Origin: Scenedesmus sp. PABB004
Taxonomy: Eukaryota
Reading direction: 5' to 3'
Assembly (NCBI GenBank): GCA_014905635.1
Contig: JABVCE010000013.1
Coordinates: 62,001 to 126,000 of the forward strand
DNA: 64,000 nucleotides
Numbering within the stretch: position 1 is the first letter of the stretch; each line of letters begins with the position of its first letter. A program made the translations under genes and the position numbers. This document shows, in pieces, positions 1,763 to 42,642 of the stretch. The notes under the pieces are model-generated. The model was not told where the DNA came from. It did no database searches and was given only the letters and a program-made list of their open reading frames with translations.

Positions 1763-4659
1763 TCACTGTCCCTCCATCTTCTTGAAGATGACGCAGCTGT
1801 TGTGGCCGCCAAAGCCAAAGCTGTTGCTCAGCGCCACGCGCACGTCGCGCTGCTGCTTGCCGCCGGCGCACACGACCGCGGGGTCGACGCCCGCCTCAGG
1901 GTTGGACACGTTGATGGTGGGGTGCACCCAGCCTGGCGGCGCGCGGCGCGGGGTGGGCGGCGGCGCGGCGCGGCGGCTGCTCGGCGCGGGCAGCGTGCCG
2001 GCGACGCCCGGCGGCGGCGCCCGGGTGGCCTCACCCGTCTTGATGGCCATGATCGTGGCCACCGCCTCCACCGCGCCCGCGCCGCCGAGGAGGTGCCCGA
2101 TCATGCTCTTGGTGCTGCACGGCGGCGGCGCGGCGCGGCGCGGCGCGCGGCGTCGGCCCGCCGCCTGCCGGCCGTCGCTCGCTCCGCACAGCCCCCCCGC
2201 CGCGCAGCCCCCCGCGCAGCCCCGCGCGCCGCGCCGGTGCGCGCCTGTTCATGCGCAGGGTGTCGTGCGGCAGCACGCGGCGGATGGCGCGATACTCTGC
2301 CATGTCGCCCGCGGGCGTGGAGGTGGCGTGGGCGTTGACGTAGTCCACCGCGCCCGCCTCCAGGCCTGGCCGCGGGGGGGGCGGGGCGAGGTTGCGGGAA
2401 TGGGCGCGTGAGCGGGCGCGTGAGCGGGCGCGCGGGCGGCAGGCGCGCGGCGTGCGGGAGGCGGCGGGCGGGTGCGCGGGCGGGGCGCGCGGGCGTCGCA
2501 CCCGCCGACGCGAGCGCGCGCTCGAGGCAGAGCGCGACGCCGCGGCCCTCGGGCTGCGGCTCGGTCATGTGGTGCGCGTCGCAGGTGAAGGCGCCGCCGA
2601 CGTACTCGGCGTAGATGCGCGCCCCCCGCGCGACGGCGTGGCCATACTCCTCCAGCACCAGCACGCCTGGCGGGGGGGGGGCGTGAGCGCGCGCGTGTGC
2701 GCGTGGGCGTGTGGCGTGTGTGTGCGCGTGCGTGAGCGCGCGCGCGTGTGGGGGTGTGTGGGTGTGTGGGCGGGGGGGGGGGGCATCGGCGGGCGGCGGG
2801 GCGCGCGGTGCGCCGGCGCGGCGCGCGGGCCCGCCCCGAGCCTCGGACGCCGCCGCCGCCCGGCCCCCCGCGCCCACAGGCCCCCCCCCCCCCCCAGCGC
2901 CGCCGCCCGCTCACCCGCGCCCTCGCCCATCACGAAGCCGTCGCGCCCGGTGTCCCACGGCCGGCTCGCCTCGGCCGGCGCGTCGTTGCGCTTGGAGAGC
3001 GCCTTGCACGCGACGAAGCCGCCGATGCCGCTCGGTATGATCGTCGCGTCGGCCGACCCCGCGAGCATGAGGTCGGCCTGGCCCTCGGCGATGTGGCGCG
3101 CCGCGTTGGTGATGCAGTAGTTGCCGGTCGCGCAGGCGGTGTTGATGGCGTAGTTGGGGCCCATGAACCCCAGGTCCATCGCGAGCAGCGCGCCCGCCAT
3201 GTTGGTGATGGCAAAGGGGATGCAAAAGGGGTTCATCTTGCGGAAGCCTTGGTGTGTGTGTGTGTGTGTGTGTGTGTGGGGTTGGGGGGGGGGGGGGGGC
3301 GAGGCGGCGGTTGGGGGTCAGGTCAGGAGGGGAGCGGCGGCCGGGGGGAGGGAGGGAGGGGCGGGCGAGGGCGCGGCGGGCGCGGCGGCGGCGGCGGCGC
3401 GCACTCTGCGTCTCGAGCGCCTCCACCGCGGTGGAAAAGCTCGTCATGCCGCCGAATGCGCTGCCGATGAGGATGCCGCACCGCGCCTTGTCCAGCTCCT
3501 GCGCCGCGGGCGCGGGCGCGGGCGCGTCGGCCAGCGGCGCGCGGCGCGGCACGAGCGCGCGCAGCTAGCTCCGCCCCAGCGCGGCGCGGGGCTTGCCTTG
3601 ATGTCGGGCCCCGCCCAGTCGAGCCCCGCGTCGGCGAGCGCCTTCTTGCCCGACACCAGCACGTACTTGATGGTCTTGTCGAGGCGGCGCTCCATCTTCT
3701 TGGCGATGTAGCCCTCCGCCTCAAACGACTGCGACGCGGCGGCGGCAGCGGCGGCGCGCGGCGCGGCGCGCAGCGTCGTGTGTGGGCAGGGGAGCGGGGC
3801 GGCGGCGGCGCGCGCGGCGCGGGCGGCAGGCTGCGCCCCGCGCGCGCGCGTGCGGGGCGCGGTGTGGCCGCGCCTTGATCTCGCCGGCAAAGCGCGTGGG
3901 GAAGTCTGTCGCGTCAAAGCTCTCGATCTCGCTCACGCCGCTCTTGCCCGCCAGCAGCGCGTCGTAGAAGGGCTCGATCTAGAAGCGCGGCGCGGCGGGG
4001 GCGAGGGGCGGAGGAGCGCGGCGGCGCCCAACGCGGCGTCGGCGGCGCGGGAGGGACGGCGCGGGCGCCCGGCGGGCGCGGCGGCGGCGGCGCACCCCGC
4101 CCCGCCCCGCCCCGCCCGCTGCTGCGGCGGCCCGCCCGCTGCCGGCCGCACCTCGTGCCCCAGCGGCGACACCACGCCCATGCCTGTGACCACGACTCGC
4201 CGGCTGCTGCCATCCTGCGGGCGCGCGCGCAAAACGCGCGGGCGCGCGCCGGCGTCGGCGGCCACGCCCCCGCGCGCTGCGGCGCCGGCGGCCGCTGCGC
4301 GCGGCGCGCACCGTGCCAGCGGCTGCCCGCGTCACCACCCGCGCGCGGCTGCGCGCTGCTGCTACCCGCGGGCACTGCGGGGCGGCGGCGGCGGCGGCGG
4401 CGGCGCCCGCCGGGCGTCGTCGGCGCCGCGTCCTCCGCGATCGTGCGCGCCGCCCACAGGGCCGCAGCTGCTGCGGGCGCCGCCGCGACTGCTGGCGGGC
4501 GCCGGGGCCGGGGCCGGGAGCGCTGGCGTGCCGTGCTCGGCGCCGCCGCCGCCGTGCAGGGGCGCGGCCGCGCCGCGCCGCCGGAGCAGCGCGCGCCGCG
4601 CCGCTGCGCCGCCCGCCGCCCGCGCTGGGCGCGCCGCCGCCGGGGCGCTGCAGCTGCAT
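1763..4659 (-). CDS. KAS2: Plastid 3-oxoacyl-ACP synthase II (KAS II/FabF), multi-exon; start uncertain (ATG 4659, or in-frame ATG 4893)
   Basis: Motifs RRVVVTGMG, FPTRFAGEIK, MNPFCIPFAITNM, TACATGN (catalytic Cys), DGFVMGEGAG, DAHH, YVNAHATST, STKSMIGHLLG, SNSFGFGGHN. Transit-peptide-like ...RVVTRA precedes the catalytic domain. Confidence 0.95.
3252..3299. repeat. (GT)n microsatellite followed by a G run, intronic in KAS II
   Basis: Read directly from the sequence. Confidence 0.9.
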
Positions 4660-5814
4660 TGGCTGCCGCCCGCCGGGCGCCGTCGGGGGCGGCCCGCCGC
4701 GGCCGCGGGCGGGGCCCGGGCGGTTGCCCGGGGCGCGGCAGCAGCAGCTCACCGAGGTGCTGAACGCGGCGCGCCTGCAGGCGCCCGCGGCGCGCGGATC
4801 CACGCCTGCGAGCACGAGCAAGGGCGTCAGCGCCGGCGTGCGCCAGCGCGCGAGGCCGCGGCCGGCCGCGGGCAGGCGCGCACCGAAGGCCATCAGAGCG
4901 CTGCTGCTGCCGCGCCCACGCGCCGCCGCCTGGGGGCGCGGCGGGCCCAAATTCACTGCGTCAGCTGCCCGCAGACGGCGCCGCGCATAGCGCGGTCGCG
5001 CAGGTGGGCGTTAGGGGGGCGGAGCGCGCGGGGGCTGCTGCTGCTCGAGCGCTTCGCGATCGGGCGCGAGCGGCGGGCGAGTAGGGCGGCGGCGCGCCGG
5101 CGCGGCGGCGGGGGCGGCGGCGCTGCGACGCTGCGCCGCCGCCTTGCGCCGCTGCCGGCGCGCGCGATCGATCGGCGCGGGTGGGCGCGCGGGCGCGGGC
5201 CAGCGCTCAGGCACAATCTACAGCAGTGCCGCCAGCCAGCCAGCCAGCCCACACCCCGCGCCGCTGCCCCGCCCCAACGACCAATACGCTGCGCGCCCGC
5301 CGCGCCGGTCTGCGCGCCGGCGCAGCGCCGGCCCTCAGACCGACCGACAGACAGAGAGGGCCCACAACCAATGACGCCTGCGCCGCCGCCGCCGCCCGCC
5401 GCCCGCGCGCGCCCAATGGCGGCGCGCCGCGGGCTGGGGCGTGCGGTCGGCGCGTCCCTCGTGCCCGCCTCGCTCTCGCGCCCGCACGCGCGCGTGGGCG
5501 TGTTATTATGCCTCCCGCAGAATGCCTGCAGAGCAGCGCCGGCCAGGCGCAGCGCGCCCCGCCAGGGCCGCAGCGGCGGGCGCGCGCCGCCCCGGCGCGC
5601 GGCGCGCGCAGCGGATGCAAGTCTGTCTGTCTGTGCACGCGGTCGGCGCCGCCGCGCGGCGCGCGCATGTACAGCGGCAACGCCCCGCCGCACGGCGCGC
5701 GGTCCACCACCAATCCACGCCCCGTCCTTGTCCCCGTCGCGTCGCCGTCCCCGCCCCCGTCGTCGCCCCCGCGCCACGCGCAGGGGGGCCCCGCCGCCGC
5801 GCCGCGCGGGCCGC

Positions 5815-8800: not shown

Positions 8801-8859
8801 CCCGGCAGGCGCACGCCGCACGCGCCGCCCACGCCCGGAGCGCACAGCATCGTCGCCAT
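5815..8859 (-). CDS. MFS transporter with long low-complexity N-terminal extension; both ends uncertain
   Basis: Multiple hydrophobic helices; MFS motif-A-like FSGVLSDRMASRK and LGRLDDRAGH; DRLGNGVQAAPRDALIGD. First exon proposed from ATG 8859 to a GT donor near 8719. A TGA at 5815-5817 is out of frame with the main ORF. Confidence 0.85.
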
Positions 8860-11291: not shown

Positions 11292-11372
<81 letters not shown>

Positions 11373-14300
11373 CCGCCGCCTTGCCGGCTGCGACGATGAC
11401 CTCCGCCGCCGCGCCGCCCGACTTGCTGTCGCGCAGCGTGCCCGCCATCGACTGCTTGGTGGGGCTCTGCGGCGGCGTGTTGGAGGCGCCTGCGGGGGCG
11501 GAGCGCGGCGCGGCGTGAGCGGCGGCGGCGCGAGGCGCGGCGCCCGCCGTGCGCGCGCGCGCGCGGGCGCTCACTGAAGCCCGACGTGCTGCCGCGCTTC
11601 TCGTGCCACAGCTGCTGCGGGTTGGTCATGTGTGCCGCGAGCGCCGAGGCAGCCGCAGACACGCGCGCCGCCGCCGCGACCGCGACCGCGCCCGCCGCGC
11701 TCTGCGTGCGCGACACGAGGTCGCCGCCGCCGCCGGGCGAGCCCGCGCCGCACCCGTCGCCGGGGGGCACGCCCGTGTGCCGCGCCGGCACGGCGACGCT
11801 CAGCCCGGGCGGCGCCCGCGCGGCGCCGTTGCAGGAGCTGGCCGCCGCCTGCGCCGCCGCCGGCGCGGCCGCGGCGCCGCGCGGCGCCGCGGCCGCCGCC
11901 TGCGCCGCGGCCTGCGCCGCGGCCTGCGCCGCCGCCGCCGCCGCGCCCCACGCCGCGCCGCCGTCGGCGTCGCCGGCGTGGGGGCCGCCGCTGGTCTCGT
12001 ACTCCTCCTGCGTGAGCGTGAGCAGCTGGAAGGGCTTGGTCTTGAAGCGCCCATACTCCACGTCCTCCTTGAGGATCATCACGCGCATGAGCACGCGGTC
12101 CATCAGCGCCTCCTGCAGGCCCAGCGCCTGCAGCCCGCGGCGGACGCGCGGGCGCGCGGCGCGGCGGCGGCGTGTGGCGTGTGGGCGCGCGGGCGCGGCG
12201 CGCGGACAGCAGCGCACGGGCGGCGGCGGCGGCGGCGGCGGGCGCACCTGTCCGAGGCCGCTGAGCCACGAGTTGCTGCCGAGCCAGCCGCCAAAGTCGG
12301 CGCGCACGATGCAGGTGACGAGCGTCTGCGGCGAGTCGCGCCCGGTGCGGCCCTCGAGCGCGCTGAGCGTTATGGCGCCCGTGATGCGGCACCGCACGGG
12401 CGTGCGCCACAGCGCCTTGCGCCGCCCGCTGCCGGGGTCGCTGCGCAGCACCGCGCGGTGCGCCTGCGCGCGCGCGCGCGAACGCGGGGCGGGGTGGGGC
12501 GGCGCTCGTCATCGGCTTGCCCGCCGCGCTCGCGCGGCGGCGCCGGCGCGGCGCGTCGATCGCGGCGCGCGGCACGCACCCGCTGCGTGCGCGCGTTGGC
12601 GCGCGCGATCCACTCTGGCTTGACGTCCTCGTCAGGCACGCTGCTGAAGAGCACCGCGTACACGCCCTCCTCGTAGCTCGTCAGAACCTGTGGCCCCGCG
12701 AGCCGCACACGCACGCACGCAGGGCGCGCGTGAGCGGCGCCGGCGCGCGCAGCAGGCGCGCGCGTGCCGCGGGCGCCGCGCAGCGGGGCGCGCGCAGCAG
12801 GGCGTGCCGCGCGCCGCGCCTGGTGCATGAAGGTGTAGCGCGGCGCCGCGAGCACGGTCGCCACGCCCGCGCTGCCGGCGGGGTGGAACACCATGTGCCA
12901 CACCTGCGCCGCGCCGCGCCCGCGCCGCGCCGTCGGCCGCCGCCGCCGGCGGCCTCGCGCCGGGCCCGCCAGGCCCGCCGCCCGGCCCGCCGCCCAGCGC
13001 GCAGCGTGTGCGCGCCTGCATGTCTCCGTTGTCCTCCAGCACCTCCATGAACGCGGCCGTGCTGAGCACGCTGCCGGTCTTGTCGGCCTTGAGCATCAGG
13101 TTGCCCACGCAGCACTCGGGGCTGGCCGCGACCGCCGTGCTCAGCATGTACTCGCCAGACGCCTGGCGGGACAGGGCGCGGGGCGGCGCGGGGCGGCGGG
13201 GCGGCGCGGGGCGGCGGGGCGGGGCGGGGCGGGCGCGCGCGGCGGCGCGCGGTGAGCGGCGGCGGCGGCGGCGGCGCGTCGCCCGCGGCTCGCTCGCGCG
13301 GACGGACGGCCAGCCCACCCGCCGCGCCCCGCCGCGCCCTGGCGCCGCCCGCTGCCCTGCCCAGCCCCTGCCAAGCCCCTGCCCCCGCCCCGCGCGCGCC
13401 TGCGGCATGCCCTCCTCCTGCGGCGTCTGGCGGTAGTAGATGGCCATGCCATTGGCGTGCTTGTACGGCACCCAGCGCACCATGCACTCATCCACGACGA
13501 CGCCGGTGGTGCTGCTGCTGCCCCCGCGCGCGCCGCCGCTGGCCGTGCCCGGCCGCGAGCCGCGCGGCGCCGGCGGCGGCGCACCGGCGAGGCCGGCCAG
13601 GCTGTTGCTGCTGCTCGCGTGCGTCGGCGGGTCGGGGCTGGCGGGGCCGCTGCCCAGCGCCGGCGCGGCCGCAGACAGGCCGCCGCCCTGGCTGCCGCCT
13701 GCGAGGTCCTGGCTGCTGCTGTGCCGGTAGTGGCCGCTGCCGCCCGCCGCGTTGCTGCTGCTGCTGCGGTCCAGCACCAGCTGCGGCGACGGCGAGAGGC
13801 AGTCCGACACGCTCGGCTGCTTGCTCAGGCCGCCGCTGGGCGTGCCCTGCGCACGGGCGCGGCGCCGGCGGCGGCGCACGTGAGCGAGGCGGTCGGCAGG
13901 CGAGCTGCGGCGCCGCTGTCGCCCGCCCGCCGCGCGCGGGGCGCGCACGCCGCGCCGCGCGCCGCGGGCCCGGCGCGAGCCCGCTGCCGCCCCGGCACTG
14001 CCCCGCGCACCTCGGGGCTGTTGTAGGGGCTCGCCCGCGCGCTGCTGCTGCCGCCCGCGGGGCTGTAGGGCGCGCCGGGGACGCCGAGCGCCGCGATGTG
14101 CCCCGCCAGCGCCGCGTGCCACTCCTGCGCCTGCGCGAGGCTCGCAAAGCCGAGCTCCACGACCGAGCCGTGGTGCGGCGCGTACTTGTCGGGCCACTCC
14201 ACGCGGAAGCAGTACTGGCGGGGTGGCCAGGGAGGGCGGGCGCCGGCGTGGGCGGGCGGCCGCCGGCCGGCAGCGCGGCCCCCACCGGCGCAGCGGCGGC

Positions 14301-15045: not shown

Positions 15046-16661
15046 ATGCTGCGGGCGGGCGGGCGAGCAGCCGGACCGCCGCAGGCCGCGGCGCGGGCCG
15101 GCAGCAGCGCCTCGTCGGCGCCCACCCCGCCGCGGCCGCTGCGCGCCGCCGCGCCCCGCGCCCCACACGAGGCGGGCTGCGCCCCGCAGCCTGACAGGTG
15201 CGCCGCCGTGGCCCCGCACCGGGCGCCGGCGGCGGTCGCGGCCGGGCGGCGGTCGCGGAGGACAGCGCGCCGGCGGCGCGCATGCATGCCCTTCCCCCCT
15301 GCCCTCACCTCCGCCGCCGCCGCTGCAGGGAGGGCGAGCAGCCGCAGCGGCGGCCGCGGGAGCCGCAGCAGCAGCTGCAGCAGCGCTGGCCCGCGGCCCC
15401 TGCCGCGGCAGGCGGCGCCTTGACCGGCGGCGCCCGCCAGCGGCGCCGCGCGGCGCTGGCGCTGGGCCGGCCGCGGGCCTGCGGCGGCGACGCCGGCGAG
15501 CGCCCGCCGCCGGAGCCGCCGGCCGCGAGCGGCGCGCCGCCCGCGCGCGCGGGCGGCGGCGCCGCGCCGGGGCCCGACCCGGAGCCGCCCGCGCTGGGCG
15601 AACGCAAGCCGGCGGCGGCCACCGGCGGCGACGAGGAGCTGGACGTGGAGGCGGCGGTCGACGCGATGCTGGACCGCACGTGGCAGGGGCTGAAGCGCGA
15701 CCTCAAGAAGGAGCTCTCGCCCGAGCAGGCGGCGATGCTGGACAGCTGGCGCGTGAGCGACATCCAGAGCGACCGCGTGTTCCGGGACATCGCGGAGCAG
15801 CAGCTCGGCCCCATCCTCGAGGCGCGCGCCGCCGCCGCGCCACGCGCCGCCGCCGCACACACGCCGCCGCCGCCGCCCGCGCCGCGCGCGAGCCACAACG
15901 CAACCAGCCGCCGCCCGCGCGCCCGCCCGCCCGCCCGCACGCGCGCGCGCGCTCGCATCACATCGCACCACACCACAGCTCATGGGCATCCGCGAGGACC
16001 CCTACGACTTTTTTGTCGACCTCTTCAAGACCGCGCTCGCGCTGCAGCTGCTCAGCGGCGGCCTCGCCTTCTACGGCGCGCAGCTCGGCGCGGGGCTCGA
16101 CGCCGGCGGCGCGCTGCGCTGCGTCGCGGGGCTCGCGCTCGGCTACGGGCTGCGGCTGGGCATCAAGATCGAGCAGCTCGTGCGCGCCACGCTGCCGCCG
16201 GGCGCGGCGCCGCGCCTTAGGCGCCGCGCGCGGGCCGCCCCGCCCGCTGACGTCGCCGCCCCGCGCCGTCCCTCGCCCCCCGCCGCGCCAGGCGTGGCCG
16301 ATGTACAACGCGGTGGTGCAGCTGCTCCTCCGCGGCGACGCGGTGTACGAGGTGCCGCGCGCGACGCCCGAGGAGCGGCGCGACACGCTCAACCGCCTTG
16401 GCCTCGCCGTCGGCGCGGCGCTCGTGCTGCCCAAGGCCGCCCTCGGCTGGACCAACGACGAGTGCGCGCAGGTGTGCGGCGCGGCGCCGCGGCGGCGCGC
16501 GCGCACGCGCCGCCCGCGAGTGGCGGCGCGTGCCGACGGGGGCGCGCGCGCTGCACGCGCGCCAGATGGTGCTGCCGATGCTGGCGGGGCTGTTTTGCTT
16601 CGACTTGGCCTACATCGCCGCGCTGCTCATCAAGCTCTGGGGCCACGAGGACCGGCAGTGA
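15046..16661 (+). CDS. Unknown multi-pass membrane protein with organelle-targeting-like N-terminus, about 5 exons
   Basis: MLRAGGRAAG... (R/A/S-rich); spliced core ELDVEAAVDAMLDRTW...LMGIREDPYDFFVDLFKTALALQLL...MVLPMLAGLFCFDLAYIAALLIKLWGHEDRQ*. About four hydrophobic segments; frames are consistent across splice sites. Confidence 0.8.
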
Positions 16662-19459: not shown

Positions 19460-19875
19460 GCCGACTCAGGCGCTAGGCGCCTCGGGCGCCTCGCTCGCCG
19501 CGCATGGGCAAGGGCTGTTCGGAAAGCGCGCCGCGGCAGGCCTGGCGCCGCAGGCACACGGCTTGCGAAGCTTGCGAAAGCTGCGAGCAAGCCCGGGAGT
19601 CCGCCCGGGACCGGCCGCGCGGGCGCGGGCCGAAACGGCCGGGCGCTGCTCGAGGGCCAGCAGCGCCGGGGGTGCGGTCGGGGTGGCTGCCGGTGCCAGA
19701 GAGCGCGCGCGGGCTGGCCGGGCGCTGCGCATCGCTGCGGAGGTGTTTCGACCGGCGAAGCTGAACCGTCGCGGTTCAAGCGACGCGACGCAAACCTTGG
19801 AGCGCCGGGCCCCTACGGCTAGCCCTCCCCCCCCACGCCCACGCCCCGCCCGCCGCCGCCCCCGCCGCCCACGTT

Positions 19876-22800: not shown

Positions 22801-24739
22801 GGCGGGCGCGGGCTCGCGACAGGCGCCCCGAGGTGCCCCGGCGGGCGGCGGCGGCGCGCCTGGAGGATGTAGAAGCTCGAGTCGCCCGCGATGGCCACGA
22901 GCTCGCCGTTGTCGCTCCACAGCACCTCGCGCACCGCGCCGACGTCGATGCGCCGCACGAGGCGGCCCTCGTCCCAGTCGTAGAAGCACACAAAGTCGGC
23001 GCCGCGCACGCCTGGCGCGGCGCGGCGCGGCGCGGCGCGGCGCGGCGGGGCGCGCGTGAGCGCGAGAGGCCCGCGCCGCCGCCGCCGCCGCTGCCGCCGC
23101 CGGGCGCGGCCGCGCCGCGCCGGCGCCGCGCCCGCGCCGCCGCCGCCGGCGCCGCGGCCGCGCACCGACGAGCGCGCCGCCGTGGATGCCCTCGACCGCG
23201 TACTCGATCTTGAGCGCCGCGCGCTCCGCAAAGTTCTTGTGGATCTTGATGCGGCTCCCGCCCTCGCGCACCGCATAGTCGGTCGACTCGGCGCTCCACG
23301 CAAACTCCATCGCGCTGCGCGCCGCGGCGGGCGACGAACCTAAGGTCGCGCGCTCGCCCGCCCGCCCGCCCGCGCGCCCGGCGTGCCCCGAGTGCAGCGC
23401 AGCCCCTCCGCGGCGGCGGCGGCGGCGGGGGGGGCGCGCGGCGTGCGCGGTCCGGCGCGGGGGCGCACCTGCCGAAGCTCTTGTTGCGCCACGCGAGCGC
23501 GGTGTAGACCACATACTCGCCGTCGCCGCACACCGTCACGAAGCGGCCGTTGGGGTTGTGCTTCAGGCTCTGCGGCGTGCCGCGGCGCGACGTAAGCGCG
23601 GCTGCTCGGCCGGCCGCCGCGAGCCCTCCCGCGCGGCGCGGCGCGGCAGGGCGCGGCGCTGCCCCGCGCGACGCCCCGTGCCGCGCGCGCGCGTGCGGGG
23701 CGTGCCTGCGGGTAGAGGTCGCAGGCGCCGAGGTCCTTGACCGCGAGGGGGAGGCGCTCGCCGTCGACGAGCTCGTAGTCGGCGCCGAGGCTCTTCACGT
23801 TGACGGTCTGGATCTCGTTGTGCCGCGCCCAGATGATCTTGCCGCTCGCGTCCATCGACGCGACCGGCTCCTCGCGGCCTGTGGCAGCAGCGGCGCGGCG
23901 CGGCGCGTGAGGCCGGCGGCGGCGGCGGGCAGCGGGCAGCGAGGGGCCCCGCGGCACGCCACAGCCGTGGCGTGCGCGGCCGCGCGCCGCGCCCGCGCGG
24001 CGCACCGATCTTGACGACCGCGACGCCCTCGTCGAAGCCGAGCGCGACGCTGTTGCTGCCCTTGATGACGCCGATGGCCCAGATGCGCTCCATGCCGTAG
24101 TTGAGCGTGTTCTCAAGCCTTGACACCGGGCGGCGGCGGCGGCGGCGCGGGGCGGCGCGAGGGAGACCGCATGTGAGCGTGTGTGTGTATGGACGGCGTG
24201 CGAGAGCGCGGCGGCGGACTGGGGCTGCCCCGCGGCGAGGCGCCGGTGGGGGCGGGGGCAGGGGCGCCGCCGGCGCCGGTGCTGGCGCGCGGCCGCACCG
24301 GTAGGTCGTCGCGTGCCACATCTTGACGCAGCCGTCCTCGCTCGCGCTGAGGATGATGGGCAGCTCAGGGTGGAACGCGACGGCGCTGATGTTGTGCGCG
24401 TGGCCCTCGAGTGTGTGCACGCAGGCCTTGGTCTGGTAGTCCCACACCTTGATCAGCCGGTCGTCCGCGCCCGACACCAGGAACGGACGGTCGCCGCCTG
24501 GGCCGCGGCGGCGCGGGCGCGGCGGGGGGCCGCGGCGCTGAGGCGGCGCGGCGGCGCAGGGCGGGGCGGCCGCCCCGGGAGCCGCGCGCGACGCCCGGCC
24601 GTCCCGCGCGGTGCCCGGCCGCGCACCCGTGAAGTAGTCGACGCAGTTCACGCCCTTCTCGTGCCCCTCGAGCGTGAAGTTGGGCAGCGGCTGGCCCAGG
24701 CTCCACACCTGCGCGCGCGCCGCCACGGCCGTGAGCGGG

Positions 24740-24781
<42 letters not shown>

Positions 24782-26230: not shown

Positions 26231-26530
26231 CTTTGCTGCTGCTCTCGCCCGCGCCCTCAGGGCCCTCCAGGCGCGCGCTGTGATGGCCAGGCCGCGCGCA
26301 GCCGTTGCAGCGAGTGAAGCCGAGGGCAGCAGCTCAATCGGCACCGCTGCCCGCTCAGCTCCGCGCGCTCTGGCTGCGCCATCGCGGCCGGGAACTCGCA
26401 GACGCGGTCGGAGTGCGCTAGCGGACGCCGTGCGCGCCGATCTCCCGCGCCCGCCCCGAGCAGCAGCGGCGCCTGGGCAGCGCGTGGCGTGCGGCGACCA
26501 GGATGCGCGCCTGAGCCCGGGCTGGGGCCG

Positions 26531-28328
26531 ATGAGGGGCATGGCGCTGCCCGCGCCCGCGCCGGGCGCGCGGGCGCTCGGCGCGCGGCCCGCCAGCGCGC
26601 CAGGGCGGCCGCTCGGCCTCGCCAGGTGCGCCCATTGGCGCGGGGGCGCCCCCGCCGCACGCCGCGGCCGAACCGGCCGCCTGCATGCGCGCGCCGCGCG
26701 GCGCCGCCGCTGCCGCCGCTGCAGCGCTGCGTCCGTCGCAGCGCGCTCACGCGCCCGCGCGCGCGCAGGCCGGCGGCGGGCAGCAGCTGTGCTGCGGCGG
26801 CGGGCGGCGCGGCGCTGCGCGGCGCCCCGCGCCGCGGCGGCGCGCACGTGCTCGAGGCGGCGGCCGCCGCGCCGCGGCCCGCGGCGCTGCCCGAGCGCCT
26901 GGAGGCGAGCAGCAGCAGCAGCGCCAGCGGCAGCAGCCCGCCCCGCCGGACGCGCAGCAGGAGCGGCCGCGGCGGCGGCGCCCCGGGCGCGGCGCCCGCT
27001 GCCGCCGCCGCCGCCGCGTCGGCGCGGCGCGAGCCCGCGGCGGTGGCCGCTCCCGCGCCGCCGGCGGGCGTGGCGCCGGAGCACCTGTCCGCGCTCCTCG
27101 TGTCGGCGGCGGGGCACGGCGCGGCGGCGGCCGCGGCCGCGGACGCGGCGGCGGCGGCGGCCGGCCTGGCGCTCGCGGGCGCGCCGCACGGCGCCCCGCC
27201 GGCGCCCGACGAGTGCGAGACCCGCACGGGGCGGCGGCTGAGCGACGCGGGGTGGCAGCTGATGCAGGCGGTGCTCGCGGCCGGCAGCTGGCAGGAGCTC
27301 GCGCGGCTGGTGGAGGCGCGGCCCGGCGACTTCAGCGCGCAGCACTGCGCCGCCGCGCTGCACCGCCTCGCGGCGCTGTGGCAGGCGCAGGAGGCGGGCG
27401 CGGGCGCGGCGCGCGGCGCGCGCGCGGAGCTGCGCCTGCAGCTGCCCGACGTGCAGGCGCTGGCGCGCGCGCTCCTGGCGGGCCTGCAGCGGCAGGCCTC
27501 GGACGCCGAGGCGCGCGACGTCGCGGACGCGCTGCAGGCGGCGGTGGTGCTGCGCCTCGCGCTCGCGGCGCCTGCCGCGGGCGAGCGGCAGCGGGGCGGC
27601 GCGGACGCCGCGCCGCGCCGCGGCGGCGCGCCTCACGCCGCCGGCGCCGGCGCCGAGGGGCTGGGCGACGCCCTGCTGCAGCGCAGCCAGGCGCTGCTGC
27701 GCGCGGGCAAGGTCAAGCCGCTGCAGCTGGCGCGCGTGTTGTGGGGGCTGACGCAGCTCGGCGTCGCCCCGGACCGCGACTGGTGGGCCGCGGCGCTGGA
27801 GGCGAGCGCGGGGCAGATGCAGGCGCAGCTGGACGCGCCGCGGCAGCACGGGGCGGCGGCGGAGCAGGAGCAGCAGCAGCAGTCGGAGCGGGGGCGCGTG
27901 CACAACCCCCGCACGCTGGCATGCATGGGCTGGGCGGTGGCCAAGCTGCGCGCCCCTGCGCCGGCGGCCTGGTGGGCGCTGTATCGCGCCGCCACCGCGC
28001 ACCAGCTGCCGGCCATGGAGCCGCGCCAGCTCGCCAACTGCGCGTGGGCGCTCGCCACGGCGCGGTCAGCGCCAGGCGCCGCGTGGATGGCGGCGTTCTG
28101 GGATGCCTCGGGCGCGGCGCTCGGCGGCTTCTCGCCGCAGGGCCTCGCCACCGTGCTGTGGGCGGCGGCGGCGCTGGGCGAGGCGCCGCCGCGCGGCTGG
28201 ATGCGCGGCTTTGGGGCAGCGAGCGCGGCGGCGATGCCGGGCTTCAGCGCGCAGCAGCTCAGCATGACGCTCTGGGCGCTCGGCCGCCTCAGCCGGGCGC
28301 GGCAGCAGGGGCGGCCGCAGGCTCAGGC

Positions 28329-28364
<36 letters not shown>

Positions 28365-28370
28365 GCAGGT

Positions 28371-28403
<33 letters not shown>

Positions 28404-30012: not shown

Positions 30013-30017
30013 TGTAA
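30013..30017 (+). promoter_or_regulatory. UGUAA polyadenylation signal for the OPR gene
   Basis: TGTAA about 75 nt after the stop codon. Confidence 0.6.
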
Positions 30018-31441: not shown

Positions 31442-33453
31442 TCACGCCGCCGCCGCCGCCTCGCCCGCCGCCGCCGCCGCGTCGTCGTTATCGTCGCAGA
31501 GGCGACAGCTGAGCCGGCAGTAGACCCTGCGGCGGCAGCCGCGCTCAGCAGCACCGCCGGCGCGGTGCGCGCGCGGCGCGCGCGAGGCGCCTGCAACCCG
31601 CCGGGCGCCCCTCCCTCCCTCCCCCGGCGCCCGCGCGGCGCACCGCATGTAGCCCGGGTTCTTGTCGCACTCCCCTGCACGGCGGCAGGCCGGCGACAAG
31701 GGGCGGCCGGCTGAGCGGCCGGCCGCGCGCGGCCCGCGCGGCGGGGCGGGCGCGCGCGGCGCCGCGCCCACCCGTGCGCGCCCAGTAGCTGCAGTGCTCC
31801 GCGCCGTCGACGCAGCCCTTCCACTTGGCCGCCTGCCACGCGGCGTCCTTGCGGAACGTGTCGACGTGGATCCACTTGGTGGCGGACCACTTGGAGCCCT
31901 TTGTCGTTGGGCAGCTCCCGTGCAGCGAGTGTGGGTCCTCGGCGCCGTCCGGGGTCAGGCTGCGCGCGCGGGCGCGCGGGCGGCCACGGTGGAGGCGCCG
32001 GCGGGCGCGGCAGGCGCCGGCGACGGCGCGGCTGGCGGGGGCCGCCGCACCTGTAAAACAGCAGCGCGTCGCCCTTTATCGGCTTGTGCGCGAAGCCCTG
32101 CCGCGCGCACTCGCTCCACCCCGGCCCGCTCACGCGCAGCGCGGCGTCAACGTTGGGAAACACGGTCTGCGGCGCGGCACGGCCCCCGGCGCTGGGCGGC
32201 GGGCGGGCGGCGCCAGCGCGCGCCCCCGCTGGGCGGCGCGGCGCGGCGCGGCGCGGCCGGCTGCGTGCGCGCGGGCGGGCGCCTCGCCTCGCCGCCCTCC
32301 TCCGGCGTGGCGAGATACATCAGCACAGTCACGATGCGCTGCCCGCCCTGCTCGGGCGCCTTGTTCACGGCGTCCAAAAAGTAGTCTGCGGCCGGGCGCA
32401 GGGCGCGGCCGCGCGCAGGGCGCGGCGGCGGCGGCGGCGGCGGCCGTGGCGCGGGCGTGGCGGCGGCCGGGTAAGGGAGCGGGCGCGCGCGCCGGCCACG
32501 GCGGCGCGCGGCGGCGGCGCGCGGCGGCCGGCGCGCTCACCGTGGTGGGGCTCATACTTTTGGCCGTCGACGTAGCGCAGGACCTGCAGCCCCTCCTGGT
32601 TCTCTGCGGCCAGCGGTCGTGGCGCCGGCGGCGGCGGCGGCTCGCCCGGCCGCGCCGGGCGAGCGCCCCGGCGGCCGGCTGCGCGCGGCCGGCCGGCGCG
32701 CAGGGGCGCGCAGGGGCGCCGCGGCTGCTCCGCCGCGGCGCGGGCGACCGCCGCACCCTTGGGCAGCATCGTGACCATGGCCACGCGCTCCTCAATCGCG
32801 GCAATCACGTCGTCGCGGCCCTGGTCCAGGAAAGTCCCCGTCGAGGTGCGCACCTGCGCGGCGGCGGCCGCGTGAGGGCGCGCGGCGCGGGCGCCGTGGC
32901 CGCGCCCGGCCCGGGTCGCGCGCGCGAGCTGGGCGCGCCGCGCAGGGGGCGCCCCACACCTCGCTGCGCTCGCTCTCGCCGGTGTCGGTGTTCACGACGT
33001 CCGAGGCGGTCAGGTTGCCGCGCGACTGCGCGCCGGCGGCGGGGCGAGAGCGGGGGGGGGGGGGGGGGGGGGGGGGGCTCGGCGCGCGTGGCTCGGCGCG
33101 CGCGCACTGCTGCTGTTGCGGCGGCGGCGGCGACGGCGGCGGCGCGCAGCGCGGGTCCCCGCACAATGTCCTTGATGTGCTCGCACTCTGCGTCACTCAG
33201 GAAGCCCTTGAGCACAAACGCGCGCGGCCGCCACGTCAGCGGCACCATCTCGCCGCGCCACTCCACGCCCTGCGCGCGCGCGGCCGGGCGGCGGCGGTTG
33301 CCGCGCGCGGCGCGCGGCGGCGCTGCTCGCAGCGCGGGCCGTGGGCCGCCTGGTGCGCCGCACCTGCGTGCTGCGCCCGATGGCCAAGTTCTCGGCTGCA
33401 TTGTAGCGCGGCCACAGGAGGGCCACCAGGGCAGCCAGCACCACTCGGCGCAT
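31442..33453 (-). CDS. P4H: Prolyl 4-hydroxylase (2OG-Fe(II)) with C-terminal ShKT domain, multi-exon
   Basis: Signal peptide; LTWRPRAFVLKGFLSDAECEH, VRTSTGTFL, EGLQVLRY..GQKYEPHHDYF, GGQRIVTVLMYL, GGETVFP, SLHGSCP..KGSKWSATKWIHV; ShKT-like C..W...GECDKNPGYM..YCRLSCRLC. Confidence 0.95.
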
Positions 33454-33855: not shown

Positions 33856-36800
33856 ATGGCTCGGTACCGCCGCGGCGGCGGCCGGCTGCGGGCGCCGCTG
33901 GCAGCGTGGCTGGCGCTGCACCTGCTGCTGCTGCGCGCGGCCGCGCTGCCGGCCCCGGTGCCGCCGCTGACGGCGTCGCCGCAGCCGGCAGGAGCGGCCG
34001 GCAGGCCAGCCGGAGCGCCGGCGGCGTCGCGGCCGCGGCAGGGCCTGCCGTCGCGGCCGCGGCAGAGCTGCCCCGCGCTGTCGGCGCCGCTGTCAGCGCC
34101 GGGCTGCCCCTGCACCATCCACTATCACTCGGCGTTGGCGGGAGGCGGCGACAGCGGCGCCAACACCACCGCCGCTGGCGCCAACAGCACCGCCGGCGGG
34201 CCGCAGCAGCTCAACCGATGCCCCGCGGGCTTCCGCTGCAGCCCCAGCGCCGCGGCGGTGATTATGGCGGTCGGCTGGCGCGCGCCGCCGTCCGTCAACA
34301 CCACCGCCGCGGGCCTGGACGACAGTCTCGCGATCGCGACCGGCTGGGACTGGACGTGGGGCGCCGGCACCGGCGCTGGCGTGCTCGACGACGACGGCGG
34401 CCCCGGCGGGATGGCGACGGCAGCCGCGTCTAGCGGCGTGTGCGTGCCGTGCCAACTGAGTGAGCGGCGCGGCGCGCGGCACGTCACGGCTGCGCCGCGT
34501 GAGCCTCGCGCGCGCGCGTGCACTCGCAGCCGCGCCGGCTCGCCGACGGCCGCGCCCGCGCGCGTGCACCCGCCGCCGCAGCCGAGTACTGCCCTGCCGG
34601 CACCGAAGAGGAGACGTGGCTGAGCATCGTCGAATGCCAGACGCGGCTGGGCCAGGCGGCGCCCTCGGGCGGCGCCGACAAGGCGCCGGCGGAGCCGTTG
34701 CTCAGCGAGCAGGGCACGATGACGTGGTGCCGCGGCTTCAAGGCCTGCCCGCGCGGCCGCTTCTGCCCGAGCCCCTCGGTCGCGCAGCCGTGCGTCGCGG
34801 GGAGCTGGTGCCCCGAGGGCATGCTGCGCCCGCAGACCTGCAACGTGACGCGCCTGCTGAGCTGGGACCCGTTCAAGGTCGTGCGCCCCGACCCCACGAG
34901 CCTGCTGGAGCGGCTCGCCGCGTATGGCGTGCCACTCGGCGGCAACAGCTGCCCGGCCAATTCGACCACGCCGCTCACGCCTTGCCCGCCCGGTTTTTTC
35001 TGCCCCACCGAGGCCGAGCTGATCGAGTGCCCCGCCGGCCACGCCTGCCCGAGTGAGCGCGGCGCGCGGCACGGCGGGGCGGCGCGGCGCCAGGGGGCGC
35101 GGCGCGGCGGCAGGGGGCGCGGCGCGGCGGCAGGGCGCGGCGCGGCGGCGGCAGGGGGCGCGGCGCGGCTGCAGGGCGCGGCACGCGCCCAACCCCGCCG
35201 CCGCCGCCGCCGCCGCCGGCCGGCCAGGCTACTCTTCGGCGCCGGTCAAGTGCCCGCCGCTCGCGAGCTGCACGGCGCCCGGCGCCGCCGCGCCGGCGTG
35301 GTCGTGGTGGGGCCTGCTGCTGCTGCTGCTGTGCCTCGTGCTGCTGCTGGCGCTCCTGGAGTACCTGCGCGTAGCGGGGCGCCGCTCCGGCCGCGCGAGC
35401 GAGGACGAGGTGGCGCAGCTCATCGGCGCCGTGGGCTTCCAGGCGCGCGGCGCCGGGCGGCGGCGGCGCGCGCGCGCCCGCGCCGCGCGCCCGCGCCGCG
35501 CGCCACGCGCCCCCCGCTCACCGCCGCGCCGCGCCTCGCCGCGCCGGCCGCGCCGCGCAGCTGATCAGCACCCAGCAGGAGCAGTATGTGCTGCGCCGCA
35601 TCGCGCCGCCGGCGGCGCCGCCCAAGCGCGCGCAGCTGACCGCCGCGCTGCAGCGCGCCTTCTCGCGCGTGCCGCCCGGCGCGGTGCGGCCGCGCTCCGA
35701 GGACGGCATGTCGTCGGTGCGGGGCAGCCTGCGCAGCTCGGTCACGGCGCTGAGCCGCCGGCAGACGATGTCGACGCCGCACAGCAAGGGCTTTGCCGAG
35801 GCGCTGCGCAGCTCATTTGTGGCGGGCGTGTCGGGCGCGGTCTCGATCAGCCGCTCGCTGGTGTGGCGCGCGTCTGGCGGCAGCAGCAGCACCGCCGGCT
35901 CCGCGGCGGCGCTGCGGCGCGGCGCGGGCGCGGACGCGGCCGGCCGCCCGCTGGCGGAGGGGCGCGAGGAGCGGTCGCAGCTGGACCAGCAGGGACCGCA
36001 GCAGGAGCAGCAGGAGCAGCCGCCGCCGCCACCGCCACACACGGTGCTGGAGGTCGGCTCAGTCAGGGACGCCGGCGCGGCAGCGGCTGCGCCCGGCGCA
36101 GGGCTGGCGGCCGGCGCCGCAGACGGCGGCGGCGCCGGCGCCAAGCGCCCCCGCATCTCCTGGGCGCGCAGCGCGCTCGAGCGCGAGGCCGCCGCCGCCG
36201 CCGCCGTCGCCGACGACGACAGCGACGCCGCGGCGGGGCAGCCGCGCCGCCTGGAGCGCGCGCTGACGAGCGACTCGCACCTGACGGCCCTCACCGGCAC
36301 CACCAACACGCTCACCGACACGCACACCACGGCCACGGACAAAGGCGACGCCGTGCCCGCCGCGGCGGCGCTGCCGGGCGCGGCCATGGATGAGGAGGCG
36401 CCGCGGCTGACGCTCGTGTTCCGCGACGTCTGGGTGGCAGACCGGCCGCTGCGCGGCCGCTGGCTCGCGGCGGCGTGCGGGCTGCGGCGCGCGCAGGGCG
36501 TGCCGCAGCTGCGCAGCCCGAGCGAGACGGGCGCGTGGGACGGCGCGCCGGGGCCCGACGCCGCGGCGGCCGAGGCCGCCGGCGCTGCGTTCATCGTGCC
36601 GGGCGTGAGCGGGGAGTTCCGGCACAGCCAGCTGCACGCAATCATGGGCCCGAGTGGCTGCGGCAAGACGACGCTCTTGAAGGCACTCGCCGGCCGCCTG
36701 CCCGCGGCGCGCGCGTGGGGCGACGTGCGCGCCGTGCTGTGCGCGCAGGGGGCGGCGGGCGCGGACGCCCGCGGCGGCGGCGCTGCGCCGCAGGGCGAGC

Positions 36801-39800: not shown

Positions 39801-41242
39801 TGATGTTGGGGCGCTGCGGGCGCAAGTGGATCTCCTCGCGCGGCGCGCTGATGACCGACCTGCTGCTCACCGCGCTGCTGGGCCTCGCGCTCGGCACGGC
39901 CCAGGCGCGGTCGCGCGGGCCGCAGCTCGCCCCGCAGGGCTCGCCGCCGCTCTGACGCCGCCGTCCCGCTGCGCTGACGCTGCCGCGGCGCCGCGCACAC
40001 CGGCAGGGCCACATCGACAACGCCGGCGAGTCGGTGCTGTGGGGTCTCATCACGCTGCTGGCGTTTGGCACCATGGCGTTGGCGCGCAGCACGCACAGCC
40101 TCGGCGACGAGCGGCACCTGTTCCTGCAGTCCGAGGCGCACGTGCGGCGGCGGCGGCCCGCCGCCACGGCCCGGGCCGCTGCGACGCGACGCGGCCGCCC
40201 GCCGACGGCCGCCGCCCGCCGCCCGCCGCCGCCCGGCGCAGGGCGGCGTCTCGGCGCTGGCGTGGGTGCTCGGCCACGTGCTGTTTGACCTGCTCGGCCT
40301 GCTGCTGCAGCCCCTCGTCTTCTTCAGCTCGTTGTACGTGCTGACGCTGCCGCTCGTGCCGCCGCGGGCGTACCTTTCGGTCCTGGTGCTCGTCGGCTGG
40401 TACTGCTCCGGCGTGGGCTACCTCGTCTCGCTCGCCACGCCGCCCCGCCAGGCGCTGGTCGCGGGGCTCGCGATCGCGCTGCTGCTCGGCGGCGTCGCCA
40501 ACGGCGTCGCGCCCAAGGTCTGGCAGCTCGCGCCCACCAACCCGCTCGCGTGGCTCGATGCCATCAGCTACACGCGGTGAGGCCGGCCGCCCGGCCCGCC
40601 GCCCACACCGCCGGCACGCGCCCCGCTCCCGCGCCGGGCCCGGCCCGCGCACGCCGCGCGCGGCGCCGCCGCGCCGCTCACGGCCCGGCCGCCGCCGCCG
40701 CGCGCCACGCGCCGCGCGCGCGCAGCTGGGGCCTGCAGGCCCTCTATATCGCGTGGCTCACGCCCCGCCTCTCGCCCGAGCGCGCGCCCGCCACGGCCGC
40801 GTTCCTGGCGCAGCTCGGGTTTTGCGGCCTCGACCCGCGGCTGCTGCAGGCGCTGGAGGACCCGAGCCACGCGGGCGACCGCGCGCGCACGATGGGCCGC
40901 GTCGTGCACGACGCGGCGGCACAGCGCAACGCGACGTCCGCGGCCGCCGACGCGCAGCGCTGGCTGGGCATGGGCGGCAGCGCCGCGCGTGCCGACGTGC
41001 TCGCCGACGCCGCGGCGGCCGCGCACGCGGGCGCCGCCGACGACGACGCGCGCGCCGTGACCGCCGCGGCGGCAGCGCTGACGCAGCTCTGGCGCTTCCA
41101 GAGCCACCCCGAGGCGCTCACGCAGGAGTGCGGGGGCGCTCGCGCGGCCGCGCTCGGCGTGCTGTTTGCGCTCGGCCTGGGCTGCCGCCTCGCGGTGGTG
41201 CTGCTGGTCAAGTGGAAGGTGGCGCGCAAGGCGCAGGAGTAG
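33856..41242 (+). CDS. ABCG half-transporter with signal peptide and Cys-rich N-terminal ectodomain (ABCG24/28-like layout), multi-exon
   Basis: Signal peptide; CPxGxxCP repeats; one TM helix; Walker A GPSGCGKTT; GFVPQFD; signature MSGGQ|RKR; Walker B LLYLDEPTSGLD; HQPR; C-terminal TMD ending KWKVARKAQE*. Confidence 0.9.
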
Positions 41243-41663
41243 GAGGAGTAGGAGCAGTAGGGGGTGCCCTGCAGGGGAGGAAGGGAGGCGTTGATGCTGC
41301 ACCGGTGTGTGCGCGCGCGTGCGATTTGAGCCGACACGCGCGTGAGATAGAGTGTGAGAGACAGAGAGAGCGAGAGATTGTGAGAGAGAGCGCGAGCGAG
41401 GGACAGCTGGGGCGGGCTCAGAGCACTGCTGCAAGTGGCGGTCGCCGACCGAGGGCTCTGGGCTGGGGCTCTGCAAACCCCGGGCGCGAACCCCGGTCCC
41501 CGGAAACTGGCGCACATTCGTCGAACGGATGTCAGGGCGGCGCCGCGTGTTGACACGCGCTGCGTTCCAGCCCGCCGCAGCCCGCCCCGCCTGCCCACTC
41601 CCACACTCCCCTGCTTGCTAGCTGCCCCAAGAATGCCGCCGCCGCTGCGCGCCCCGCCCGCCC

Positions 41664-41756
41664 TCACAGGTCGTACGTGAGCGACCACACACCCCGCCGA
41701 TAGTGCGCGCCCCAATTGTTCTCGCGCAGCGAGAGGTGCAGGTCCTGGAGCACGAC

Positions 41757-41789
<33 letters not shown>

Positions 41790-42642
41790 TCAGCACCGGC
41801 GCTGCGGGCCCAGCACCGGCGCGGGCGGCCCGCGGCGCCGCCGCGGCCGCGGCGCAGCGCACCGCGTTGAGCTGCCCGCTGCGGGCGGCGCCGCTCGCGG
41901 CCTTGGCGGGGCGGGGCCAGTCGAGGTCCAGGCCGACCGTGAGCTGCAGGTCCTGGTGCGCGGTGAAGTCCAGCAGCCGCCGCGACACCGCCACGTGGCC
42001 GCTGCGCACCATCTGCGAGGCGCGGGCGCGGGCGCACGCGGGCGCGCGGGCTCGCGCCGCCGCCCCACCGGCCGCGGGCGGACGTCGGCCGCGGCCGCGC
42101 GCGGCGCCGCCGCCGCACCCTGCTGGAGCGCGGGTCCAGCTCCACGCGGGCCTTGGCCGACAGCTGCGTGTGCTCGCCCTCCAGCAGGCTCAGCTTCTTG
42201 CTCGCCGTCGCGGTCAGGAACGGCTCGTCCGCGTGGCCGCTGCTCACGCCCAGGCCGACGCCAAGCCGCAGCGGCTGCGTCAGCGACTCCTGCGCGGGGG
42301 AGGGCGTGGCCCCGGCGTGGCGGTCGCAGGGAGGGCGGGGGCGGGCAGGCGCCCCGCTCCGCCCGCCGCGGGCGCCGCGGCGGCAGCGGCAGCAGCGGCA
42401 GCAGCGGCGTCCCGCGCCCGCGCCGCCGCCGCGTTGCACCCCGCCAGCACCGCGCGGCGCGCCTTGATCGCGGGGCCCGAGGTGAACAGCTTTTGTGCGG
42501 TCGCGTGGTATTCGAAGCCGCCGGTGGTGGTGTTGAGGCGCCCCCGGAAGCGCATCGCGACGTTGGGGTCGGCCGTGACGCCCTCCTTGAGCAGGAAGCT
42601 CAGGTGCCGCTGCTTGGGATCATAGTGCAGCGAGGTCTCCAT
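41664..42642 (-). CDS. OEP21: Chloroplast outer envelope pore protein OEP21-like, 4 exons
   Basis: METSLHYD...LKE...RGRLNT.TG; LGVGL; LDFTAHQDLQLTVG; LRENNW...WSLTYDL*. Matches the plant OEP21 termini as I recall them (METS..., RENNW...W..RYDL). Confidence 0.88.

What the first reader, a model, noticed from the sequence alone, without database searches (positions are those of the whole stretch)
2115..42462. Unusually high frequency of GC-AG introns
At least 16 introns need a GC donor, always after exonic AG (AG|GCGCG, AG|GCAAG, AG|GCACG, AG|GCGAG). KAS II: 2115-2244, 3499-3596, 3729-3873. EDR2-like: 12688-12819, 12904-13015, 13163-13399. Membrane protein: 15822-15978. COPB2: 21398-21510, 21819-21972, 22171-22348, 22762-22859, 23570-23705. 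P4H: 32167-32287. ABCG: 35443-35560, 39905-40006. OEP21: 42290-42462. Several restore conserved motifs exactly (AGEIK|SF, MNS|TKSMIGH, GGE|TVFP, DLYPQ|SLKH), and 15822-15978 contains no GT at all. By rough hand count this exceeds 10% of introns, against about 1% in typical plants and animals. Many also lack the strong +3 to +6 consensus GC donors normally need, which hints at an altered U1/U6 snRNA or spliceosome under GC pressure.
Basis: partly seen in the sequence, partly recalled or inferred. Interest (0 to 1): 0.75.

Follow-up and report, generated by a model that had tools for sequence, protein, structure and literature searches.

The report
Abundant GC-starting introns in green alga
In this extremely GC-rich green alga about one intron in six is predicted to begin with GC instead of the near-universal GT, almost only after an exon ending in AG; this is known from a few other GC-rich algae, and the splicing RNAs here look ordinary.

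Summary
All 16 sites read AG|GC...CAG. Nine are pinned to the base by homology; seven rest on a gene model only. A self-trained gene model that favoured no non-GT donor found 298 GC among 1608 introns in 851 kb of genome G000. That is 15-19%, depending on prior and denominator, while 14 decoy dinucleotides totalled 76. Three blindly chosen ATPase genes gave 10 GC of 63 introns. GC use is gated by exonic AG: 40% of AG| donors, about 2% elsewhere. Paralogous introns switch between GT and GC. U1, U2, U4, U5 and U6 motifs are canonical, so the altered-snRNA idea fails. Best reading: ordinary U2-type GC-AG introns, made by GC pressure wherever exon-side pairing offsets the +2 mismatch. High GC-AG rates are published for Emiliania, Aureococcus, Micromonas pusilla and Chlorella, with GC content as the proposed cause; my searches found no report for Chlorophyceae. 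No RNA data could be examined. The scan had not noted this elsewhere.

The parts
2115..2244 (-). GC-AG intron, KAS II (CAG|GCGCGC), phase 2
   Evidence: donor-agnostic alignment to 18 algal homologues, no gap
3499..3596 (-). GC-AG intron, KAS II (AAG|GCAAGC), phase 0
3729..3873 (-). GC-AG intron, KAS II (AAG|GCGCGG), phase 0
   Evidence: gene model, kept at 0.2% prior; length a multiple of 3; no homology test
12904..13015 (-). predicted GC-AG intron, same gene
   Evidence: gene model, kept at 0.2% prior; nearest in-frame GT 27 nt upstream
13163..13399 (-). predicted GC-AG intron, same gene
   Evidence: gene model, kept at 0.2% prior
15822..15978 (+). predicted GC-AG intron (GAG|GCGCGC) with no GT inside
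   Evidence: no homology test
21398..21510 (-). GC-AG intron, COPB2 (AAG|GCGCGG)
   Evidence: donor-agnostic alignment to 16 homologues
21819..21972 (-). GC-AG intron, COPB2 (CAG|GCGCGG)
22171..22348 (-). GC-AG intron, COPB2 (CAG|GCGCGC)
22762..22859 (-). GC-AG intron, COPB2 (CAG|GCGCGC)
23570..23705 (-). GC-AG intron, COPB2 (CAG|GCACGC)
26905..27081 (+). doubtful extra GC call (GAG acceptor, length a multiple of 3, low-complexity region); probably a false intron
   Evidence: gene model only
32167..32287 (-). GC-AG intron, prolyl 4-hydroxylase (GAG|GCGAGG)
   Evidence: flanking exons abut at residues 148/149 of 2jig_A
35443..35560 (+). predicted GC-AG intron, ABC transporter gene; in-frame GT 12 nt upstream is an alternative
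39905..40006 (+). predicted GC-AG intron, ABC transporter gene; least secure (length a multiple of 3, lost at 0.2% prior)
42290..42462 (-). predicted GC-AG intron (gene label OEP21 unconfirmed); in-frame GT 12 nt downstream is an alternative; lost at 0.2% prior
   Evidence: gene model only

Best explanation
These are ordinary major-spliceosome (U2-type) introns whose donor has changed from GT to GC. Strong GC-ward pressure (biased mutation or gene conversion) keeps pushing the +2 T towards C. The change survives almost only where the exon ends in AG, because that adds pairing to the U1 5' end and then to U5 loop 1, while +5 G keeps the pairing to U1 and to the U6 ACAGA box. An AG|GC donor then pairs about as well as the common non-AG GT donors of the same genome, so it stays above a recognition threshold and is only mildly selected against. 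With A at +3 the penalty disappears. Shown: sites, rate, context rule, GT/GC switching between paralogues, canonical snRNA motifs. Inferred: that the junctions are spliced as predicted, the pairing geometry, the source of the GC pressure, and the selection strengths.
For: Rate: 298 GC, 1234 GT and 76 decoy calls among 1608 introns; AG|GC is still 245 of 1589 when every non-GT donor gets a fixed 0.2% prior; 7-22 GC calls in each of the 18 larger blocks, 11-33% over all 20. Decoy opportunities are as common as GC ones (non-donor AG|NN-R-N-G: CG 1312, CA 834, GC 688, CC 615), yet called AG|CG, AG|CA and AG|CC donors number 0, 11 and 8 against 279. Blind homology check: 10 GC, 49 GT, 4 unresolved among 63 introns of three ATPase paralogues, all 10 after AG. 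Public protein P0242, laid on its locus, uses both GC donors of that gene. Switching at shared intron positions: GT/GC/GT and GT/GC/GC. Context: GC share 44% after CAG, 41% AAG, 23% GAG, 19 of 839 elsewhere; ACG at +3..+5 gives 23 GC and 0 GT. U1 hydrogen-bond score: AG|GC 14.4, non-AG GT 14.0, AG|GT 16.1. Intron-interior GpC/(GpC+GpT) is 0.92. Canonical snRNAs; METTL16, SNRNP27, U1-C and LUC7 genes present. Compensation by a stronger context and neutral fixation is the published model for mammalian GC donors (PMC2490688).
Against: No RNA evidence. The +4 rule is not explained by U1 pairing: G at +4 could wobble with U1, yet GC donors avoid it (GGG context 4 GC versus 69 GT; GCG 216 versus 273), and the GC share is not monotonic in my U1 score (44% at 15, 19% at 16, 4% at 14). 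GC donors cluster among genes beyond chance (p about 0.001), and neither gene GC3 (p = 0.24) nor the GC content of a gene's other introns (p = 0.09) explains it. The published correlation between genome GC and GC-AG share is weak overall, and C. reinhardtii has 2.0% (PMC3033335). Donors with only five Watson-Crick pairs to U1 work here, which a human-like U1 snRNP would bind poorly (+2C competes weakly in vitro, PMC4383343). No orthologous introns from lower-GC relatives were available, so the direction GT to GC is inferred.
Confidence: 0.7

Rival explanations
1. A changed spliceosomal protein (or snRNA modification) in this lineage lowers proofreading of +2 or strengthens exon-side recognition, and GC pressure then fills the opened space.
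For: Only one LUC7 gene was found. Its last zinc-finger motif has Tyr where yeast Luc7 has His. One of the three atlas clusters listed is named LUC7L3 (score 0.91), and that subfamily favours exon-side-strong donors (PMC11842720). U1-C has Ala at Thr11 and Ser at Lys22 (prediction; residue numbers from PMC4383343). The +4 rule and the tolerance of weak donors are unexplained. PMC3033335 also pointed to proteins or modifications after finding canonical U1.
Against: None of these changes was compared with other green algae, so they may be general chlorophyte features. Alanine mutants of the U1-C residues had no growth effect in yeast. The LUC7 subfamily call rests on one weak atlas row plus recall, and the own-genome searches scored few candidates. 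The pairing-threshold model accounts for most of the pattern without a new part.
Confidence: 0.17
2. GC donors are selected as weak, regulatable sites (alternative splicing or intron retention).
For: Clustering among genes. E. huxleyi combines GC donors with much intron retention (PMC4028052).
Against: 154 of 264 intron-bearing gene models carry a GC donor; no bias to first or last introns; paralogues switch freely; the share at AG| sites is below the neutral expectation, not above.
Confidence: 0.05
3. The excess is an artefact of gene modelling or of T-to-C base-call errors.
For: The gene model is my own and self-trained; CAG GCG and GAG GCG are common codon pairs; at least one window call is probably false; read data could not be examined.
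Against: Decoy donors stay rare; read-through-compatible introns are no commoner among GC calls (26%) than GT calls (25-28%); homology agrees at the base. At conserved Val columns preceded by an AG-ending codon, 15 of 16 are Val, 1 Ile, 0 Ala. GC donors have a different +3/+4 profile from GT donors, which errors would not create.
Confidence: 0.05
4. The GC introns are copies of an introner (transposon-derived intron family), as in pelagophytes.
For: Introners with GT and GC donors exist in Pelagomonas (bioRxiv 10.1101/2021.10.25.465678).
Against: 9 of 298 GC introns versus 44 of 1234 GT introns have a look-alike in the sample. Terminal inverted-repeat matches equal shuffled pairs (7.5 versus 7.4 of 12) and no extra direct repeat is seen. 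GC introns sit at positions shared with GT introns in paralogues. The sample is only 2% of the genome, so small families could be missed.
Confidence: 0.03

Closest known systems
High GC-AG share in GC-rich algae: Aureococcus anophagefferens 39.6%, Micromonas pusilla 22.2%, Chlorella NC64A 7.7% (Iwata and Gotoh 2011, PMC3033335; passages and supplement rows seen)
   Same: GC-rich alga, GC-AG share far above 1%, canonical U1 5' end, GC content proposed as cause
   Different: Different class (Chlorophyceae), higher genome GC (78-79%); here no intron family is evident, and the exonic-AG gate and paralogue switching are measured
Emiliania huxleyi GC donors, 56-64% of junctions (Feldmesser et al. 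2014, PMC4028052; passages seen)
   Same: GC donors as a major class with canonical AG acceptors; attributed to genome GC content
   Different: RNA-validated there; GC is the majority there and a context-limited minority here
Chlorella sorokiniana (7090 of 124435) and Micractinium conductrix (8057 of 114347) major non-canonical sites (Pucker and Brockington 2018, PMC6310983, supplement file 8 read whole)
   Same: Intron-rich, GC-rich green algae with 5.7-7.0% GC-AG plus AT-AC
   Different: Two to three times higher here; the Sphaeropleales entry in that table (Monoraphidium neglectum) lists only 19 of 67746, probably an annotation limit (my inference)
Mammalian GC-AG U2-type introns (Churbanov et al. 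2008, PMC2490688; first of two parts read)
   Same: GT/GC interconversion at homologous introns; stronger surrounding context offsets the +2 mismatch
   Different: Under 1% in mammals, with near-consensus intronic bases; here compensation is mostly exonic and the intronic part is GCGCG
Two 5' splice-site classes, U5 loop 1 versus U6 ACAGA (Parker et al. 2025, PMC11732430; Kenny et al. 2025, PMC11842720; passages seen)
   Same: Exonic AG offsets weak intronic pairing
   Different: The passages seen concern GU donors at +4/+5; here GC donors need both exonic AG and +5 G

Membership tests
U2-type GC-AG introns | GC at +1/+2 and AG acceptor at junctions fixed by independent evidence | tested here: met
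   9 window junctions and 10 ATPase junctions fixed by homology with any donor allowed
U2-type GC-AG introns | Stronger donor context than GT introns of the same genome | tested here: met
   exonic AG in 279 of 298; more A at +3; fewer G/T at +4
U2-type GC-AG introns | Same acceptor, branch-site and length profile as GT introns; major snRNAs present | tested here: met
   CAG acceptor 95% versus 98%; branch-like motif 31% versus 30-33%; median 129 versus 123-125 nt; U1, U2, U4, U5, U6 found
U2-type GC-AG introns | Removal from mRNA at the predicted junction | not testable with these tools
   no RNA run was listed
GC-rich algae with abundant GC-AG introns | Genome GC above about 65% and GC-AG share several-fold above 1% | tested here: met
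   77.5-81% GC in all 20 blocks; 15-19% GC donors
Introner elements | Many near-identical intron copies | tested here: not met
   9 of 298 GC introns have any look-alike, no more than GT introns; 2% genome sample
Introner elements | Terminal inverted repeats or target-site duplication | tested here: not met
   equal to shuffled controls and to GT introns
U12-type introns | ATCC at +3..+6 (recalled consensus) | tested here: not met
   none of the 16 sites; not among the common contexts
U12-type introns | U11 snRNA in the genome | tested here: inconclusive
   no match, but the control genomes did not ring either
Non-canonical splicing through changed snRNA sequence | Variant U1 5' end or U6 ACAGAGA box | tested here: not met
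   2 of 2 U1 matches canonical; full-length U6 canonical, second match a 3' fragment; further divergent copies cannot be excluded, as only 41 of 245 and 48 of 671 candidates were scored
Non-canonical splicing through changed snRNA sequence | Changed snRNA modification or spliceosomal protein | tested here: inconclusive
   METTL16, SNRNP27 present; substitutions in U1-C and LUC7 seen but not compared with other algae

The most novel reading that the evidence does not exclude
This lineage has a spliceosome retuned at the protein level (a single, exon-side-favouring LUC7 with an altered second zinc finger, plus U1-C changes) that makes the +2 base nearly free once the exon ends in AG. It would be a natural mutant of 5' splice-site proofreading, with thousands of matched AG|GT and AG|GC donors, and would answer why some GC-rich algae accumulate GC donors while others do not.
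Probability: 0.15. Interest if true: 0.72.

Novelty: new member of a known kind. Interest (0 to 1): 0.42.

Why it matters
Why a few GC-rich algae have abundant GC donors despite a canonical U1 was called an enigma in 2011 (PMC3033335). Here is an intron-rich case without an evident intron family, in a lineage with sequenced relatives of about 56% GC (PMC12571836). That makes the mutation-pressure-plus-threshold model directly testable by comparing orthologous introns, and gives a graded readout of how much each donor position is worth in vivo. In practice, 154 of 264 intron-bearing gene models carry a GC donor, so GT-only annotation would damage over half of such genes here and possibly in related high-GC algae.

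Tried and rejected
RNA runs: no RNA holder listed for window 19800-26300; this is no evidence either way. Orthologous introns: the metagenome scan returned 80 COPB2 loci; the 14 I aligned were intron-poor or spliced, shared only GT intron positions near the N-terminus, and covered none of the GC positions. ORFs from all 80 loci matched only 4 of 277 predicted genes, too few for validation. GA and GG donors (28 and 34 calls in the first run) came mostly from one 172-bp satellite; I dropped the first 13,000 bases of that block before the final counts (864 kb to 851 kb). SIN3 with distant homologues: of 5 GC calls, 3 were recovered with any donor allowed, 1 only with GT+GC allowed, 1 unresolved; the aligner also placed spurious junctions in poorly conserved parts. 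One COPB2 GT intron slid by 3 nt in any-donor mode. Pfam scans of 8 single exons named only the ABC domain. U11 search uninformative. Earlier scan notes: none for this genome; two Ostreococcus notes, not relevant. Literature: nine searches showed no paper on abundant GC donors in Chlorophyceae; only listings were seen for most hits, the library lacks most subscription papers, I ran no search by strain name, and unseen supplements (including bioRxiv ones) may hold such counts.
Full report
Setting. The window is G000:C6:62001-126000 in a 39.97 Mb, 80-contig assembly. GC content is 78.4% in the window and 77.5-81% in the other 19 blocks sampled. The closest named homologues of KAS II, COPB2 and a P-type ATPase are from Tetradesmus obliquus, then Monoraphidium and Raphidocelis, so this is a Sphaeropleales green alga. 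I cite the genome by handle only.

The 16 sites. Each reads exonic AG, then GC, and ends in CAG. I wrote a spliced profile aligner with adjustable donor penalties. With any donor dinucleotide allowed, KAS II (8 introns) gave 5 GT and 3 GC, and COPB2 (22 introns) gave 16 GT, 5 GC and one GT intron slid by 3 nt. Forcing GT cost 217 and 253 score units and 31 and 52 inserted codons. The P4H exons join residue 148 to 149 of a solved prolyl hydroxylase. The other seven sites rest on the gene model; two of them are lost at a very low prior and two have an in-frame GT 12 nt away.

Genome-wide rate. I trained a generalised HMM gene finder on 864 kb (the window plus 800 kb from seven contigs). Splice signals were seeded from GT introns only, and the 15 non-GT donors started at the same 2% prior. 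GA and GG calls traced mostly to one 172-bp satellite, so 13 kb were dropped. On 851 kb the model called 1608 introns: 1234 GT, 298 GC (279 after AG) and 76 spread over 14 decoys. Outside the window it was 280 GC of 1476. With each non-GT donor fixed at 1% or 0.2%, AG|GC was 251 of 1596 and 245 of 1589. Non-donor opportunities for AG|CG, AG|CA and AG|CC are as common as for AG|GC, so false GC calls should number in the low tens at most (inference). The estimate is 15-19%. As a check not chosen for its donors, three ATPase paralogues gave 49 GT, 10 GC and 4 unresolved introns of 63. SIN3, with distant homologues, confirmed 3 of 5 GC calls outright, 1 partly, and left 1 open. Public protein P0242 uses both GC donors of its gene, so the public annotation already contains such introns.

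Not an error, not an introner. Conserved Val codons after an AG-ending codon remain Val in 15 of 16 cases and are never Ala, which argues against T-to-C miscalls in that context. GC introns have no more look-alikes than GT introns (9 of 298 versus 44 of 1234) and no terminal-repeat signal. Shared intron positions in the ATPase paralogues read GT/GC/GT, GT/GC/GC and GC/GC, so the +2 base switches within old introns.

The rule. GC share is 44% after CAG, 41% after AAG, 23% after GAG and 19 of 839 elsewhere, which is near decoy level. Among AG| donors it is 23 of 23 with ACG at +3..+5, 6 of 7 with AAG, 15 of 29 with GAG, 216 of 489 with GCG, 4 of 73 with GGG and 1 of 22 with GTG. Intron interiors have GpC/(GpC+GpT) of 0.92 and C/(C+T) of about 0.87. 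Against these, AG| donors sit 2.3-2.9 log-odds below neutral and non-AG donors about 6 below, while A+3 donors are at or above neutral. Read as mutation-selection balance this means weak selection against C at AG| sites; that reading is an inference. A crude U1 hydrogen-bond score gives 14.4 for AG|GC, 14.0 for non-AG GT and 16.1 for AG|GT. GC share rises with the intron's own GC content (33, 39, 42, 47% by quartile, p = 0.007), though easier detection of GC-rich introns could contribute.

Against a simple reading. The avoidance of G at +4 is not predicted by U1 pairing and may reflect the U6 step, where +4 faces the methylated adenosine (PMC11732430; inference). GC share is not monotonic in my U1 score. 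GC donors cluster among genes (p about 0.001), and gene GC3 does not explain it.

The machinery. U1 (two identical copies), U2, U4, U5 and U6 carry canonical recognition motifs. METTL16, SNRNP27, U1-C and one LUC7 gene are present. U1-C differs from human at Thr11 and Lys22, and the LUC7 zinc finger has Tyr for a His of yeast Luc7. I could not compare these with other algae, so they are leads only; the LUC7 subfamily label rests on one atlas row and recall.

Prior art. Iwata and Gotoh 2011 (passages and supplement rows) report 39.6% GC-AG in Aureococcus, 22.2% in M. pusilla, 7.7% in Chlorella NC64A and 2.0% in C. reinhardtii. They link it to genome GC and found canonical U1. Feldmesser et al. 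2014 (passages) report 56-64% in E. huxleyi with RNA support and the same explanation. Pucker and Brockington 2018 (passages and supplement file 8) give a plant mean of 1.2% and 5.7-7.0% for two Chlorellaceae. Churbanov et al. 2008 (first part) describe GT-to-GC conversion with context compensation in mammals. Nine searches showed no report for Chlorophyceae, within the limits of that library.

Verdict. A real and sizeable feature, but a new member of a known kind: 15-19% GC-AG introns, AG-gated, most likely produced by GC pressure on a standard spliceosome (0.7). Everything here is from DNA and homology; RNA confirmation is missing. Interest 0.42.

Noticed in passing
L177-L180 (G000:C4:565800-567125): Only one LUC7 gene was found; its last zinc-finger motif has Tyr where yeast Luc7 has His. 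Animals and land plants keep two LUC7 subfamilies.
   Followed up: partly
L171:351-1557 and L172:354-1557 (G000:C1 near its end; G000:C61 near its start): The U1-C locus and its neighbour occur twice, nearly identical, at contig ends (assembly overlap or duplication). U1-C has Ala11 and Ser22 where human has Thr and Lys.
   Followed up: partly
L110-L111 (G000:C1, about 2,003,780-2,012,270): 172-bp satellite, 49 copies at 99% identity, 88% GC; it fooled the gene model into GA and GG donors.
   Followed up: partly
window 46337-62176, minus strand: Predicted protein of about 4000 residues with 33 introns, including near-identical duplicated exon-intron units of about 1.5 kb at 52.1-56.3 kb; Cys-rich repeats and transmembrane-like stretches; only one GC donor.
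   Followed up: no
L165 (G000:C46:1124544-1127652), L001/L002, L169/L170: U4 and U5 genes lie within 1 kb of each other; U1 and U2 each occur as an identical inverted pair; all on contig C46.
   Followed up: no
851 kb sample: The genome's usual GT donor is GTGCG: +3 is G in 96-98% and +4 is C in 65-69%, so even GT donors match U1 poorly; A at +3 occurs almost only with GC donors.
   Followed up: yes
L147:49-6698 (G000:C6 ATPase gene): Public protein P0242 reads through two GT introns that homology and the gene model both support, so that annotation is 92 residues too long.
   Followed up: partly
window 126-884, plus strand: Small four-intron gene at the window start with all GT donors, about 60% identical to an ORF in L076; looks like translation factor SUI1/eIF1 (label recalled, not tested).
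   Followed up: no
L003:1501-1601 and L004:1501-1557 (G000:C77): A 3' half copy of U6 lies about 3 kb downstream of the full U6 gene.
   Followed up: no
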